From assembly GCF_017348835.2 (NCBI RefSeq), contig NZ_CP071375.1: DNA of 64,000 nt; one strand, written 5' to 3'. Shown here in pieces: positions 24,575 to 27,299 of this stretch (position 1 is the stretch's first letter; the number at the start of each line of letters is the position of its first letter). The DNA is from Escherichia coli (GTDB lineage Bacteria > Pseudomonadota > Gammaproteobacteria > Enterobacterales > Enterobacteriaceae). Under the pieces are notes generated by a model. The model worked only from the letters and a program-made list of their open reading frames with translations. It did not search any database and was not told where the DNA came from. A program made the translations under genes and the position numbers.

Positions 24575-24598
24575 TAAAAAAAGCCGGATTTCTCCGGC
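24575..24598 (-). terminator. Intrinsic terminator after the 137-aa ORF (minus-strand hairpin GCCGGAGAAATCCGGC followed by a U-run)
   Basis: Plus-strand sequence AAAAAAAGCCGGATTTCTCCGGCC. Confidence 0.65.
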
Positions 24599-24604
24599 CT
24601 TGTC

Positions 24605-25018
24605 TCAGATGGTTTTCAGTATGCGATCGATGTCGCCGTCATCGCCCTGGTTTCTGCCATCGTATGCCATGCCAGCTGATACGGCTTGCGGGCTGTGCAT
24701 GTCCATAAAGTTTTCAAAGGCTGCGGTAAGCTCTGGTGCAACCTTTGGGCGCTCCTGCTCTATGGTCATGTTCAGGATTTCACGAGCATTATCGACGCTA
24801 ATACATGGCACGTTTGCCATTGCACGTAACAGCGGCTGATAGTCTTTATGCTCATGAAGCGCCATAATCGCATCAGCGCGCGGCTTGTCCTGCTCTTCCA
24901 GTTTGTTTAGTTGATATACGGCCTCATAGGTTGATAAACCTCTGTCAGCCATTGCCCGCGCTTCGGCTTTAAATTTACTCGCCAGCGGTAGCGTCATGAT
25001 GCTTTCATTCGTTGCCAT
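24605..25018 (-). CDS. Hypothetical protein (137 aa) between the decoration gene and cos/terS; possibly a head-assembly or packaging accessory protein
   Basis: ORF followed by its own terminator; no family recognised. Confidence 0.45.
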   Translation of the reverse strand: MATNESIMTLPLASKFKAEARAMADRGLSTYEAVYQLNKLEEQDKPRADAIMALHEHKDYQPLLRAMANVPCISVDNAREILNMTIEQERPKVAPELTAAFENFMDMHSPQAVSAGMAYDGRNQGDDGDIDRILKTI

Positions 25019-25030
25019 CGTTCCCCCTGC

Positions 25031-25430
25031 TTATCGGGCCAGCGGCTGAACGGATACGCCGGAACCCGCAAAGGCGGCGCATTTTTTCGCATCGGTGTCG
25101 ACGCTCTCAGGCCAGTTAACGGCGGCAATATTGAATATCCCCGTCTTGTAACACTGTGCTGATTTCTGCTTTGACGTGTCCACAGGATACGAAGTCAGAT
25201 AAACAGCCTTGCCAGATTCCTGACCATCCCACGGCTTAAACTCGCCATTGTCCGCCAGCATCAGCGGGGTAAATTCCTGAATAACGCCAGCATCAGCGGG
25301 GTAAATTCCTGAATAACGCCAGCATCAGCGGGGTAAATTCCTGAATAACGCCAGCATCAGCGGCAAAATGTACCAGCGTCGTGGCGACCTGCTGACTGCC
25401 TGCAAATAACTCAATGTATGGAGTGTCCAT
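25031..25430 (-). pseudogene. Lambda gpD-like head decoration protein gene, frameshifted by a 32-bp tandem triplication
   Basis: C-terminal part (TPLMLADNGEFKPWDG...CAAFAGSGVSVQ) resembles lambda gpD (TPLMLDTSSRKLVAWDG...TAFAGTAISIV); translation from the ATG at 25430 (preceded by a GGGGGA Shine-Dalgarno-like sequence) reaches a stop inside the repeat array after 45 codons; with one repeat unit the frame would be a continuous 111 aa. Confidence 0.65.
25254..25363. repeat. Tandem direct repeat: 32-bp unit GCCAGCATCAGCGGGGTAAATTCCTGAATAAC x3 plus a 14-nt partial copy, inside the gpD-like gene
   Basis: Three exact contiguous copies, 25254..25285, 25286..25317 and 25318..25349, then GCCAGCATCAGCGG. 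Confidence 0.9.
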
Positions 25431-25441
25431 AGAATCCCCCG

Positions 25442-26497
25442 TTAAGCAATTTTGACAGTAACAAATTTGCGAATATCTGCCGGAACCGGCTGCGGTGCGC
25501 TGTGCGTCTGCACGTACTCAATCGCCGGATCTCCGTCCTCAATCCAGTTTTTCGGGTAGTACATGTTTTGCGTTGCCCCCGTTCTTACTGCGTCCTGATC
25601 CATAATCGCACCATAGGCCACCAGCCCTTTATTGTTGGTGTTGCCCAGGACAAGCAAATCAGGCTCAAGGAAATATTTTTCTGTGCCGTCGCTGTCAGTG
25701 TATTTGCCGGAATAGACGATAAGGGCCAGATCACCAAGATAGCCTTTAAAGCTCACCACTTCGCCCAGGTTTTTACATGCCAGCTCTGCGGCGGATTCTG
25801 AACCACGGGAGAGATCGTACAGTTCACGGAATTTTTTAAAGCTGCGTAACATGCGCCATACATCAACGCCCATAATCATGACGTTGGCGGGGCAACCTGC
25901 CTGATCTGCGTATAGTTCAATGTCATATATTGGGTCGTGTATGTCTTTATCCTGCTCAGACCATTTTTTACCGTCGGCCTGCTCTATGATGTTTTTTTCC
26001 GGTATCTTCCAGTCGATTTCATAGCGTTCTATGCCTTCGCCCTCAATGATGTTTTTTCCGGTCGTTACCGCATTCACCGCCAGCCATTCAACGTGTGCCT
26101 TAATGGCGTTTATCTGGCGGCGCATGTTGCCAGTAATCAGGCGCATACGGCGGTAGGTAGGATCGTTAAGCTGTGCCGGATCTTCTCCAGCCATGCGCAT
26201 TATTGTTTTTAATGGATCGATTTCGTGTTTTGGCTTCATGTAGCCAGGGCGGATAATGCTGGTTTCGTACCCTTTATCGCGCTGAACCTGGCTGCCAACC
26301 ATAGGCGAACAAAACGCCGACATAGTGACTTCTTCAATATCCAGGTTATCTAACATGATGTCCTGCGTGTTGAATGTCGCCACGTTCGGGAAAAACAGCG
26401 CGGTAAACAGCGGACTAAATTTAAATTCCGCAATATCCTCGCGATTCAGGTACGCGAAAAGCTGGTGTGTGTTAAGTGCTATTGCTTTGACTGCCAT
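25442..26497 (-). CDS. Major capsid protein, lambda gpE family
   Basis: 351-aa product aligns by eye along its length with lambda gpE (FKFSPLF, PGYMKPKHE, DPTYRRMR, YPKNWIEDGDPA...SAP). Confidence 0.8.
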   Translation of the reverse strand: MAVKAIALNTHQLFAYLNREDIAEFKFSPLFTALFFPNVATFNTQDIMLDNLDIEEVTMSAFCSPMVGSQVQRDKGYETSIIRPGYMKPKHEIDPLKTIMRMAGEDPAQLNDPTYRRMRLITGNMRRQINAIKAHVEWLAVNAVTTGKNIIEGEGIERYEIDWKIPEKNIIEQADGKKWSEQDKDIHDPIYDIELYADQAGCPANVMIMGVDVWRMLRSFKKFRELYDLSRGSESAAELACKNLGEVVSFKGYLGDLALIVYSGKYTDSDGTEKYFLEPDLLVLGNTNNKGLVAYGAIMDQDAVRTGATQNMYYPKNWIEDGDPAIEYVQTHSAPQPVPADIRKFVTVKIA

Positions 26498-26703
26498 TAT
26501 TCGCCCCCATAATTTTTGTGCATCCCAAGCGCCGCAAGTAAATAAGATCGCACAAGTGAACCTATCGACGGCTCCGGCGTCATCAGCGGATCCAGTCCAG
26601 CCGCAACGCCAGCTTCATAGTTTTTTTTGTGGCGCTGCTTGAGCACCTCCACGATTTCGGGGCTTATGTACACCGAAACACCGCCTTTTTTCTCTTCAGC
26701 CAT
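26497..26703 (-). CDS. Hypothetical small protein translationally coupled to the capsid gene
   Basis: Its stop overlaps the capsid start codon; start taken at the internal Met (MAEEKKGG...). Confidence 0.35.
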   Translation of the reverse strand: MAEEKKGGVSVYISPEIVEVLKQRHKKNYEAGVAAGLDPLMTPEPSIGSLVRSYLLAALGMHKNYGGE

Positions 26704-26867
26704 AGTAAGAAATTCCTCTTCGACTAAAAAAATCATAACTGGATGTTTATCCAGTCCTGATTATAATCAGAATTGCATTTTATGCAATGATATTGAGTTA
26801 TGTTGCAAATTATGAAATGATTATCCCGATCACGAACGCCAGTGCATCCAAAAACCTCATATGCAAA

Positions 26868-26907
26868 AGCCCGATAAGAACCCTCTGACCTTATCGGGCT
26901 TTTTTTG
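26868..26907 (+). terminator. Plus-strand intrinsic terminator (AGCCCGATAAG ... CTTATCGGGCT followed by TTTTTTT)
   Basis: 11-bp perfect stem with a U-run; no plus-strand CDS upstream, so it may end a small antisense or regulatory transcript. Confidence 0.55.
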
Positions 26908-26912
26908 GGCGC

Positions 26913-26935
26913 AAAAAAGCCGGATTGCTCCGGCT
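26913..26935 (-). terminator. Minus-strand intrinsic terminator after ORF 26955..27179
   Basis: Plus-strand sequence AAAAAAGCCGGATTGCTCCGGCT. Confidence 0.6.
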
Positions 26936-26954
26936 ATGTGTGCTGTGTGCTGGC

Positions 26955-27179
26955 TCAGTCTCTGATCTCTTTCAGAAATTCTATCAATGCATCTATCTGT
27001 TCAGGATTTACCGCCAGCATTTCACCGGATAGAGCACATCTCACAAAACCATGCTGATCCTTTTCAATCAGTGCGCCCGTCTCCAGGAATGCGCGGTAAT
27101 CATTGATGCTCATCGTCTCCATGTTGTCAGCATGGTATTTATCACGCTGTTTTAATATCTCATCAAATTTCATCGGCAT
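26955..27179 (-). CDS. Hypothetical protein (74 aa)
   Basis: ORF bounded by terminators on both sides. Confidence 0.4.
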   Translation of the reverse strand: MPMKFDEILKQRDKYHADNMETMSINDYRAFLETGALIEKDQHGFVRCALSGEMLAVNPEQIDALIEFLKEIRD

Positions 27180-27274
27180 TGTTTTTTTCCTCTGTTGTGT
27201 CTGTTTGTTTCAGATAGTAACTATGCCTGACCGTGACGAAAACCCGGTAATGCGCCATACCGTTTCAACTGGTG

Positions 27275-27299
27275 CAAAAAAAGCCGTATTTCTCCGGCT
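27275..27299 (-). terminator. Minus-strand intrinsic terminator after the perC-like gene
   Basis: Plus-strand sequence AAAAAAAGCCGTATTTCTCCGGCT. Confidence 0.55.

What the first reader, a model, noticed from the sequence alone, without database searches (positions are those of the whole stretch)
24575..27299. Three near-identical intrinsic terminators reused after successive island genes
The same hairpin-plus-U-run module (AAAAAAGCCGGATTTCTCCGGC and variants) follows three different small genes at 24575..24598, 26913..26935 and 27275..27299, suggesting insulated single-gene units in the late region.
Basis: seen in the sequence. Interest (0 to 1): 0.3.

Follow-up and report, generated by a model that had tools for sequence, protein, structure and literature searches.

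The report
Reused terminator at satellite-island module joints
Three copies of one short transcription-stop hairpin close three gene units of a phage-satellite island (PICI) in E. coli; the terminators look ordinary, but in about 200 related islands this same hairpin is the fixed joint where accessory genes and whole capsid modules are exchanged.

Summary
Three near-identical copies of a 22-27 nt module lie at 24576-24598, 26913-26934 and 27276-27298. The functional strand is the minus strand, which carries all the island's genes: GCCGGAG(A/C)AATCCGGC followed by U6-7, a 7-bp G+C-rich stem with a GNRA loop. Each copy starts 6-19 nt after a stop codon.

The region is not a phage late region. 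It is an 11.3-kb phage-inducible chromosomal island inserted in tqsA. T3 closes the early/replication operon after a PerC-family gene. T2 closes a low-GC 74-aa gene. T1 closes a four-gene lambda-like capsid operon just before cos. Only the 74-aa gene is a single-gene unit.

Comparison with about 200 related islands adds a second point. The same hairpin follows whichever gene ends the early region (o102, SSB, PerC or o74). It joins homologous replication modules to four unrelated capsid modules. The 74-aa cassette is present or absent with exactly one hairpin left behind, sometimes a chimeric one. More distant islands carry different terminators at the same positions.

Best reading: ordinary intrinsic terminators that also serve as the shared crossover joint for module shuffling. 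This resembles the PeSL cassettes of T4-type phages. Termination and recombination are inferred, not measured.

The parts
27276..27299 (-). T3: terminator copy after the PerC-family gene, at the end of the early/replication operon. RNA: AGCCGGAGAAAUACGGCU followed by U7. The window's copy has a stem mismatch.
   Evidence: listed as terminator-like on the minus strand; -8.9 kcal/mol. The intact version is seen in L003. Four IMG/VR sites share the mismatch.
26913..26935 (-). T2: terminator copy after the 74-aa gene. RNA: AGCCGGAGCAAUCCGGCU followed by U6, with a GCAA loop.
   Evidence: (-12.5 kcal/mol). Megablast homology breakpoints fall at query positions 2606-2635 and 2615.
24576..24600 (-). 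T1: terminator copy after o137, the last gene of the capsid operon. RNA: GGCCGGAGAAAUCCGGC followed by U7. It directly abuts the cosQ-like sequence of cos.
   Evidence: (-14.1 kcal/mol). The GGCC variant is invariant in 54 of 54 o137-linked sites. A homology breakpoint falls at query position 275.
26865..26906 (.). T2b: a second, larger hairpin 12 nt downstream of T2 (10-bp stem GCCCGAUAAG/CUUAUCGGGC). A and T runs flank it on both sides, so it could act in either direction. With T2 it forms a tandem stop in front of the late promoter region.
   Evidence: -34 kcal/mol for the T2+T2b stretch, z -4.8. It is conserved in lambda-type islands.
27306..27578 (-). PerC-family transcriptional activator gene. 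It is an optional last gene of the early operon.
   Evidence: Pfam PF06069, E 3.9e-43. RefSeq annotation. Absent in L002, L125 and L126.
26955..27179 (-). o74: a 74-aa gene of unknown function (phrog_1957), bracketed by T3 and T2. It is a moron-like cassette with low GC.
   Evidence: GC 0.427. Presence/absence is shown.
27589..27999 (-). SSB gene. In relatives that lack PerC it is the gene directly followed by the hairpin.
24605..26703 (-). Capsid (late) operon closed by T1. It contains o79 (26497-26703), a lambda-E-like major capsid gene (25442-26497), a gpD-like decoration gene (25031-25430, frameshifted here) and o137 (24605-25018, which resembles the C-terminal part of head-maturation-protease/scaffold proteins).
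   Evidence: PF03864, E 8e-49; phrog_53 C-terminal match.
24480..24575 (-). cos1: cosQ-like GGGACCT, cosN GGGCGGCGACCT, and a phage-21-like cosB side. It lies immediately downstream of T1.
   Evidence: sequence; match to the phage 21 cos/terminase/IHF region.
23857..24398 (-). Nu1-like small terminase / Rpp-like gene downstream of cos1. RefSeq annotates it as frameshifted.
   Evidence: (PF07471, E 2.7e-23).
22664..33998 (.). The whole satellite island inserted in tqsA, bounded by imperfect 76-nt direct repeats (att).
   Evidence: tqsA split into two partial CDS; family D2.

Best explanation
**(1) Terminators.** The three sites are Rho-independent terminators on the minus strand of an E. coli phage-inducible chromosomal island. 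They divide the island into transcription units:
- T3 stops the early operon that runs from the regulatory/replication genes through SSB and PerC.
- T2, backed by the larger hairpin T2b, stops the 74-aa gene and shields the capsid-operon promoter region from upstream transcription.
- T1 stops the capsid operon a few bases before cos and the Nu1-like gene.

**(2) Joint.** The copies are near-identical because they are one inherited sequence, not three convergent ones. In this island family, that 22-29 nt sequence is the only homology shared at the junctions between otherwise unrelated flanks. It therefore acts as the crossover point. Recombination within or at the edges of the hairpin gains or loses the 74-aa cassette. 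It also joins homologous replication modules to alternative capsid/packaging modules.

**Status.** Shown: sequence, structure potential, placement, and the comparative breakpoint pattern. Inferred: actual termination in vivo, and that recombination at the hairpin (rather than selection for keeping a terminator) generated the pattern.
For: **Terminator anatomy**
- The stem is 7 bp and G+C-rich, the loop is a tetraloop, and a U6-7 tract follows. Energies are -8.9 to -14.1 kcal/mol, better than shuffles.
- The hairpins are co-oriented with the genes and lie 6-19 nt after stop codons.
- There is no A-tract on the 5' side, so they should act only on the minus strand.
- Across 79 distinct sites the loop second base varies (GAAA, GCAA, GUAA, GGAA) while stems stay fixed, which fits a GNRA constraint.

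**Position conserved, sequence replaced**
- An o102-anchored sample, not chosen by the hairpin, has the hairpin within 1.5 kb downstream in 50 of 72 islands.
- The other 22 carry other hairpin+U-run elements after the same genes. One example is AGCCGGGAUUUUUCCCGGCU, which has an extra G-C pair added on both arms.

**Joint behaviour**
- Partial megablast matches in 5426 E. coli genomes start or stop at the hairpins (query positions 275, 2606-2635, 2979).
- In IMG/VR islands the hairpin follows o102, SSB, PerC or o74, and precedes any of five contexts: the o74 leader, the lambda-E-type operon, the HK97/cf-PICI-type module, a ClpP-capsid-fusion module, or a Terminase_2+capsid module. At least 10 upstream/downstream combinations occur.
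- Conservation drops from 2 bits to background within 1-6 nt on each side.
- O157:H16 L127 equals O157:H7 L003 minus exactly one cassette plus one hairpin. The hairpin left behind is a chimera, with the T3-type GAAA loop and the T2-type tail. L004 keeps the T2-type loop.

**Specificity**
- Within E. coli the hairpin is confined to 786 of 5426 genomes, at 1-5 places each, all in island contexts among the rows listed.
- It is absent from a lambdoid prophage used as a control.
Against: - There is no expression or 3'-end data, so termination is unmeasured.
- T3 in this window is weakened by a stem mismatch.
- No consensus sigma-70 promoter was found between T3 and o74. The 74-aa gene may therefore depend on read-through, which blurs the idea of insulation.
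- The 19-20 nt core occurs singly in many unrelated phyla and in about 15 unrelated phage contigs. The sequence is therefore a generic good terminator and could arise or be kept by function alone.
- The loop type tracks the downstream context (24/3 against 6/20, Fisher p 1e-6, not corrected for relatedness). Many junctions therefore lie at the 5' edge of the hairpin rather than inside it, where homology is only about 8-13 nt. That is short for RecA.
- Some exchanges used other boundaries. In L126, a cos-like stretch of about 170 nt sits between the hairpin and T2b.
- The hairpin-ascertained IMG/VR sample inflates core conservation by construction.
- Many contigs come from closely related isolates, so counts are not independent events.
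Confidence: 0.65

Rival explanations
1. These are plain terminators with no role in recombination. The hairpin is simply the inherited 3' end of the early module in a young, closely related island family. Neighbouring genes and late modules were exchanged by illegitimate recombination at random intergenic points, and selection kept only products that retained a working terminator at the early/late boundary.
For: - Distant relatives have different terminators at the same positions, so function rather than sequence is what is conserved in the long run.
- Loop type travels with the downstream flank.
- Some junctions lie outside the hairpin.
- The homology is only 22-29 nt.
Against: - Both flanks vary independently around an invariant core, in at least 10 combinations.
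- Chimeric hairpins exist: L127 has the T3-type loop with the T2-type tail.
- The cassette indel leaves exactly one copy, as expected for repeat-mediated recombination.
- Random breakpoints filtered by selection would be expected to bring in a variety of terminators. Instead the same 22-mer sits in front of four unrelated capsid modules.
Confidence: 0.25
2. The hairpin is a specific recognition element and termination is secondary. It could be a target for an island- or helper-encoded antiterminator or RNA-binding protein (a boxB-like GNRA hairpin), or part of the packaging signal, since T1 abuts cosQ.
For: - GNRA-type loops are strictly kept (GAAA, GCAA, GUAA, GGAA, and a GAAAA pentaloop in L002).
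- T1 lies 2-3 nt from the cosQ-like motif in essentially all lambda-type islands.
- A hairpin followed by a cos-like stretch recurs after SSB in other island types.
Against: - GNRA loops are common in ordinary terminators (own knowledge).
- T2 and T3 are not near cos.
- cf-type islands use a different packaging system yet carry the hairpin.
- Related islands replace it with unrelated hairpins.
- There is no Rfam match.
- The U-tract is as conserved as the stem, which fits termination rather than a nut-like site.
Confidence: 0.05
3. The hairpin is a small mobile or dispersed repeat (REP/BIME-like, a MITE, or an integron attC-like cassette site) that spreads by its own mechanism.
For: It consists of short palindromic units repeated in intergenic DNA. 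One gene cassette is bounded by copies.
Against: - It is found in only 786 of 5426 E. coli genomes, at 1-5 places each and always inside islands. It is not dispersed in the core chromosome.
- All copies are in one orientation, tied to stop codons and followed by U-runs.
- There are no terminal inverted repeats or target duplications.
- At 16 nt of palindrome it is far shorter than attC sites, and the only recombinase present is an ordinary tyrosine integrase at the island end.
Confidence: 0.03

Closest known systems
Rho-independent (intrinsic) transcription terminators of E. coli
   Same: G+C-rich stem, tetraloop, U-tract directly 3' of the stem, placed a few nt after stop codons on the coding strand.
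   Different: Nothing differs in mechanism. What is unusual is that one sequence is reused three times within 2.7 kb and at equivalent joints in hundreds of related islands.
PeSL cassettes (promoter-early stem-loops) of T4-type phages (Arbiol et al. 2010, PMC2839356; Comeau et al. 2014, PMC4122927)
   Same: - They are short conserved regulatory motifs containing an effective terminator stem-loop.
- They are repeated between non-essential genes.
- Insertions, deletions and replacements between related genomes are bounded by them and attributed to recombination between copies.

Here the o74 indel and the module swaps are bounded by the hairpin.
   Different: - PeSLs are composite elements with a strong sigma-70-like promoter plus a stem-loop. 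No conserved promoter is attached here.
- The sequence is different.
- The host element is a satellite island rather than a lytic myovirus.
- Mini-circles have not been looked for.
Morons of temperate phages (PMC3594210)
   Same: The o74 unit is an extra gene with deviant GC (0.43 against 0.55-0.57), its own terminator and presence/absence polymorphism. Morons are defined as independent units with their own promoter and terminator and deviant GC.
   Different: No convincing own promoter was found for o74. The terminator is not private to the moron but is the family-wide joint sequence.
E. coli PICIs: the EcCICFT073-type cos islands with Rpp (PMC6739421) and capsid-forming cf-PICIs such as EcCIEDL933 (bioRxiv 10.1101/2022.09.08.507074)
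   Same: The window's island shares the integrase, AlpA-like HTH, replication module, two lambda-like cos sites and a Nu1-fold small-terminase-like gene. Relatives with the same early module carry the HK97-type cf-PICI packaging operon.
   Different: Those papers do not mention terminators ('terminator' occurs 0 times in both) or a shared junction sequence. The window's island additionally encodes lambda-E/D-like capsid proteins.
Conserved inter-gene 'boundary/linker' sequences at mosaic joints of lambdoid phages (own knowledge: Clark et al. 2001 on HK620; Juhala et al. 2000)
   Same: Short conserved sequences at gene boundaries are flanked by non-homologous modules, and have been proposed as targets for homologous recombination.
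   Different: This comparison is recalled from memory and was not checked here. Those sequences are not terminators as a rule.

Membership tests
Intrinsic (Rho-independent) terminator | Stable G+C-rich RNA hairpin | tested here: met
   Energies are -14.1, -12.5 and -8.9 kcal/mol, with z-scores of -3.3, -3.3 and -2.3 against shuffles. T3 is weakened by one mismatch in this window.
Intrinsic (Rho-independent) terminator | U-rich tract immediately 3' of the stem | tested here: met
   U7, U6 and U7 on the minus strand. U positions 1-5 carry 1.9-2.0 bits of conservation (partly fixed by the search pattern) and position 6 carries 1.3 bits, across 79 distinct sites.
Intrinsic (Rho-independent) terminator | Located downstream of, and co-oriented with, a transcription unit | tested here: met
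   The hairpins lie 6-19 nt after stop codons of minus-strand genes. The gap is 4-22 nt in nearly all of about 190 island sites.
Intrinsic (Rho-independent) terminator | Produces transcript 3' ends / reduces downstream transcription in vivo or in vitro | not testable with these tools
   No Term-seq, RNA-seq or reporter data are available here.
PeSL-like mobile regulatory cassette | Conserved motif repeated between variable, non-essential genes | tested here: met
   Three copies in the window. The hairpin follows o102, SSB, PerC, o74 and o137 across islands.
PeSL-like mobile regulatory cassette | Indels and replacements between related genomes are bounded by the motif | tested here: met
   Breakpoints fall at the hairpins. 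The o74 indel leaves one, sometimes chimeric, copy. Four alternative capsid modules are joined at the motif.
PeSL-like mobile regulatory cassette | Composite structure: a strong sigma-70 promoter fused to the stem-loop | tested here: not met
   No conserved sequence extends beyond the hairpin and U-run. No consensus promoter adjoins any copy.
PeSL-like mobile regulatory cassette | Recombination between copies yields detectable mini-circles | not testable with these tools
   This needs PCR or long-read data from induced cultures.
Moron (for the o74 unit) | Extra gene absent from close relatives, with deviant base composition | tested here: met
   o74 is absent in L004, L127 and L002. Its GC is 0.427 against 0.549 and 0.574 for its neighbours.
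Moron (for the o74 unit) | Own promoter and own terminator | tested here: inconclusive
   A terminator is present (T2). No site with at least 9 of 12 consensus promoter matches lies on the minus strand between T3 and o74. Only a weak TTTTCG-17-TACTAT candidate was seen by eye.
Integron attC / gene cassette | Long imperfect palindrome (about 57-141 nt) recombined by an IntI integrase encoded nearby | tested here: not met
   The palindrome is only 16-18 nt. The sole recombinase annotated is a tyrosine-type recombinase/integrase at the island end, with no attI-like platform or cassette array beside it. Its subfamily was not tested.
REP/BIME-type dispersed chromosomal repeats | Hundreds of copies dispersed in core-genome intergenic regions | tested here: not met
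   There are 1-5 places per genome in 786 of 5426 genomes, in island contexts, and only 3 copies in this 64-kb window.
PICI (context of the finding) | Island of about 10-15 kb with integrase, regulatory and replication modules, a packaging-hijack module and att repeats, lacking lysis and tail genes | tested here: met
   Annotation and repeats, cos and a Nu1-like gene. Helper dependence was not tested.

The most novel reading that the evidence does not exclude
The hairpin is a dedicated 'universal joint' of enterobacterial PICIs. It is a 22-29 nt terminator kept sequence-identical because it is the substrate for short-homology recombination, probably by helper-phage Red/RecT-type enzymes during co-induction. 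Through it, islands would capture or shed single-gene cassettes (possibly via packaged mini-circles, as with PeSLs) and swap entire capsid/packaging modules. That would convert cos-type, Rpp-using islands into capsid-forming islands and back.
Probability: 0.3. Interest if true: 0.55.

Novelty: new variant of a known kind. Interest (0 to 1): 0.4.

Why it matters
The terminators by themselves are routine. Their value is as a map of how these satellites are built.

- **Transcription units.** They show that the island is split into an early operon, an optional cassette, a capsid operon and a cos/small-terminase unit. This predicts where transcription must be re-initiated or antiterminated after helper induction.
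- **Evolution of satellite types.** If the joint role holds, one short sequence explains how a common replication chassis is combined with four unrelated capsid strategies, including the cos/Rpp type and the capsid-forming type. These types are currently treated as separate satellite families, so this would bear on how they evolve and on helper range.
- **Practical uses.** The hairpin offers a marker for annotating module boundaries. It could also serve as an insertion point for engineering PICI-based delivery vectors.

Tried and rejected
- **Phage database.** A megablast of the 3.4-kb region against phage records hit only the cos segment (phage 21-like). It gave no help on the hairpins.
- **Genome-contig scan.** The scan with the degenerate 19-20 nt core returned single hits in unrelated phyla (Bacteroidota, Bacillota and others). 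This showed that the core alone is a generic terminator-like word and not a family marker.
- **Rfam.** A search of the whole island at E up to 1 gave no match, so no known RNA family is involved.
- **LexA box.** I considered a LexA box at 26741-26756. It is CTGG-N8-CCAG rather than CTGT-N8-ACAG, so I do not call it LexA. It is kept only as an unexplained operator-like inverted repeat.
- **EcCICFT073.** I tried to locate the prototype island by fetching CFT073 1.395-1.444 Mb. That stretch is a lambdoid prophage, so I used it only as a negative control.
- **Literature.** Searches for PICI plus terminator found nothing relevant.
- **Single-linkage clustering.** Clustering of upstream ORFs merged SSB and PerC. 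I replaced it with marker-based tblastn architectures.
- **Rejected readings.** attC-like, REP-like and boxB-like interpretations were considered and rejected for the reasons given under rival explanations.

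
Full report
**Observation.** The core GCCGGATTTCTCCGGC is at 24583-24598 (exact), 26919-26934 and 27283-27298 (one mismatch each). 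Each copy is preceded on the + strand by six or seven A. A repeat finder that knew nothing of the finding reports the same three sites as a 27-nt direct-repeat family with 85-89% identity. About 0.0015 matches with at most one mismatch to a given 16-mer are expected in the window. A fuzzy scan of all 64 kb finds only these three copies.

**Strand and anatomy.** All genes of the region are on the minus strand. There the sequence reads AGCCGGAG(A/C)AAUCCGGCU followed by U6-7. That is a 7-bp G+C-rich stem with a GAAA or GCAA tetraloop and a U-tract.
- The hairpins start 6, 19 and 6 nt after the stop codons of the PerC-family gene, a 74-aa gene and a 137-aa gene.
- Predicted energies are -14.1 (T1), -12.5 (T2) and -8.9 kcal/mol (T3). 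All are better than shuffles.
- The consensus scan lists T2 and T3 as terminator-like on the minus strand. T1 is missed, apparently because its stem can extend into its own U-run (inference).
- T3 in this window has a stem-breaking substitution. Relatives have the intact stem.
- There is no A-tract 5' of the hairpins on the minus strand, so they should act in one direction only.

**Context.** The window is E. coli PE164. The hairpins lie in an 11.3-kb island that splits tqsA and is bounded by imperfect 76-nt repeats. Its gene order on the minus strand is:
- integrase, AlpA-like HTH, Icd-like protein, small ORFs and a DUF4222 gene
- RepA-family helicase, iteron-like repeats, o102, SSB and PerC, then T3
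- the 74-aa gene, then T2 and a second, larger hairpin (T2b)
- a promoter region with a perfect inverted repeat
- o79, a lambda-E-like capsid gene, a gpD-like decoration gene and o137, then T1
- cos, a Nu1-like small terminase, and a second cos in inverted orientation

This is a phage-inducible chromosomal island, not a phage late region. Its cos matches phage 21. Two cos sites are already described for the prototype EcCICFT073. So T3 ends a long early operon, T1 ends a four-gene operon, and only the 74-aa gene is a single-gene unit.

**Comparative evidence from E. coli genomes.** A megablast of 24300-27700 against 5426 complete E. coli genomes matched 1692 of them. The partial matches begin or end at the hairpins: query 275 (T1), 2606-2635 and 2615 (T2), and 2979 (T3). 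Fetching examples showed why:
- In strain W24, SSB is followed directly by a hairpin variant and then the capsid operon.
- In O157:H7 strain 611, the same SSB-PerC-T-o74-T string is joined to an HK97-type capsid, protease, portal and terminase module of the capsid-forming PICI kind.
- In strains 09-02E and O157:H16, PerC-T is joined to that module with the 74-aa cassette missing.

The four-way alignment shows that the O157:H16 island equals the O157:H7 island minus exactly one cassette and one hairpin. The remaining hairpin is a chimera, with the T3-type GAAA loop and the T2-type tail. Strain 09-02E keeps the T2-type GCAA loop.

**Survey of IMG/VR islands.** An IMG/VR scan with the 21-nt core gave 120 loci, mostly about 10-kb islands.
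- A script found 221 hairpin sites. About 190 lie in island contexts, and 79 are distinct with their flanks.
- Marker-based architectures show that the hairpin always closes the early region, whichever gene is last (o102, SSB or PerC). It never lies between SSB and PerC. It closes o74 when that gene is present, and it closes o137.
- Downstream it is joined to five contexts:
  - the o74 leader
  - the lambda-E-type operon
  - the HK97-type module
  - a module with a ClpP-protease/capsid fusion (PF00574+PF25209)
  - a module with a Terminase_2 small terminase and a PF05065 capsid protein
- At least ten upstream/downstream combinations occur.
- Information content falls from 2 bits to background within 1-6 nt on each side of the hairpin and U-run. 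The core's own conservation is partly by construction in this sample.

**Control for ascertainment.** Islands were also collected by homology to o102 rather than by hairpin. Of 72 with at least 2 kb downstream, 50 have the hairpin within 1.5 kb. The other 22 carry different hairpin+U-run elements after the same genes. Examples are AGCCGGGAUUUUUCCCGGCU after SSB, with one extra G-C pair added on both arms, and GGCCUGGUAAAAUCCAGGCC after diverged o74 homologues. So a terminator at these positions is conserved in the long run. This particular sequence is shared by the closely related E. coli subfamily.

**Specificity.**
- Within E. coli a 39-nt T1 query hits 786 of 5426 genomes, at 1-5 places each. 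Nearly all are chromosomal, and the listed rows are in island contexts.
- A lambdoid prophage control has none.
- Outside this family, the 19-20 nt core occurs singly in many unrelated phyla and in about 15 unrelated phage contigs. The word itself is a generic good terminator.
- Rfam has nothing here.

**Interpretation.** I read the three sites first as ordinary intrinsic terminators that partition the island. T2 plus T2b form a tandem barrier in front of the capsid operon, and T1 stops transcription just before cos. Second, I read the sequence as the shared joint of mosaic exchange. It is the only homology between otherwise unrelated flanks, and cassette loss leaves one copy, sometimes a chimeric one.

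A crossover at the hairpin, plus a second crossover anywhere in the homologous integrase/replication region of two circular islands, would swap the whole capsid module. This step is inferred. Helper-phage Red/RecT-type recombinases, which use short homologies, are plausible catalysts (established knowledge, not tested here).

**Caveats.**
- Loop type tracks the downstream context. Many junctions therefore sit at the 5' edge of the hairpin, where homology is short.
- Some exchanges used other boundaries.
- No promoter was found for o74.
- Nothing here measures termination or recombination.
- Counts are not independent events, because many contigs come from related isolates.

**Comparison with known systems.** The closest mechanistic analogue is the PeSL cassette of T4-type phages. 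These are conserved promoter+terminator motifs between variable genes, and recombination between them shuffles modules and makes mini-circles. The present element shares the terminator and the boundary behaviour but lacks the promoter half, so it is not a PeSL. The o74 unit resembles a moron, except that no promoter of its own was found. The key PICI papers on Rpp and on capsid-forming islands do not mention terminators or a junction sequence, and a full-text search found nothing on this.

**Verdict.** The terminators are known in kind. The joint role is a new variant of a known kind, of moderate interest.

Noticed in passing
window 25253-25363: A perfect 32-bp tandem repeat of 3.5 copies lies inside the gpD-like head-decoration gene. 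It adds 64 nt relative to intact homologues (336 nt in L002) and frameshifts the gene. RefSeq marks it as a pseudogene. It could be a recent slippage event or an assembly artefact.
   Followed up: partly
window 24480-24575 (minus) and 23640-23720 (plus): Two lambda-like cos sites in inverted orientation flank the Nu1-like gene. In 34 of 41 related islands a forward cos lies right after T1 and a reverse cos lies 550-850 nt further on. Two cos sites (cos1, cos2) are already described for EcCICFT073. In some islands the cos2-type sequence occupies the T1-adjacent position.
   Followed up: partly
window 26737-26790 (minus strand): Upstream of the capsid operon there is a promoter-like TTGCAT-16-TATAAT (read by eye, below the scan's threshold). 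A perfect inverted repeat ACTGGAT-N4-ATCCAGT and a U-run follow it immediately. The scan lists this as terminator-like. It is conserved in L002 and L126. It could be an operator or a leader attenuator. It is not a canonical LexA box.
   Followed up: no
window 27221-27349; L003 5298-5413: RefSeq annotates a 42-aa hypothetical CDS across hairpin T3. In O157:H7 genomes the same place is annotated as a frameshifted 'trigger factor' pseudogene. Both are probably spurious calls over a terminator.
   Followed up: no
window 23857-24398: RefSeq annotates the Nu1-like small terminase / Rpp-like gene as frameshifted near its 5' end. Intact homologues are 180 aa (L002). With the broken decoration gene, this suggests that this island copy may be decaying.
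   Followed up: no
window 28265-28449: Three copies of TTTTNCNCCTCACTTTT are spaced 83-85 nt apart between o102 and the RepA helicase gene (families D5 and D7). They are probably iterons of the island's replication origin.
   Followed up: no
L133, L138, L168, L181, L183 (downstream of the hairpin); L126 8270-8440: In islands with the ClpP-capsid-fusion module, and as a roughly 170-nt stretch in some lambda-type islands, the early-operon hairpin is followed by a degenerate cos-like sequence (cgggtcctcctgg...acggggcgg(a/g)gg.gcgcgg). The arrangement of a hairpin next to cos therefore recurs at a second position.
   Followed up: partly
L207, L225 and 13 other IMG/VR loci, next to the integrase gene: An 83-aa gene beside the integrase ends in a different hairpin, GCGGCAGAAAUGCCGC followed by U5. 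It has the same GAAA loop and U-run but a different stem. It may be a distant relative of the family or an independent terminator.
   Followed up: no
L126 4148-4450; L147, L181, L192, L246: In some islands the PerC-family gene sits at the far end of the island, after the capsid/cos region, instead of after SSB. This regulator gene therefore moves between positions as well as being present or absent.
   Followed up: no
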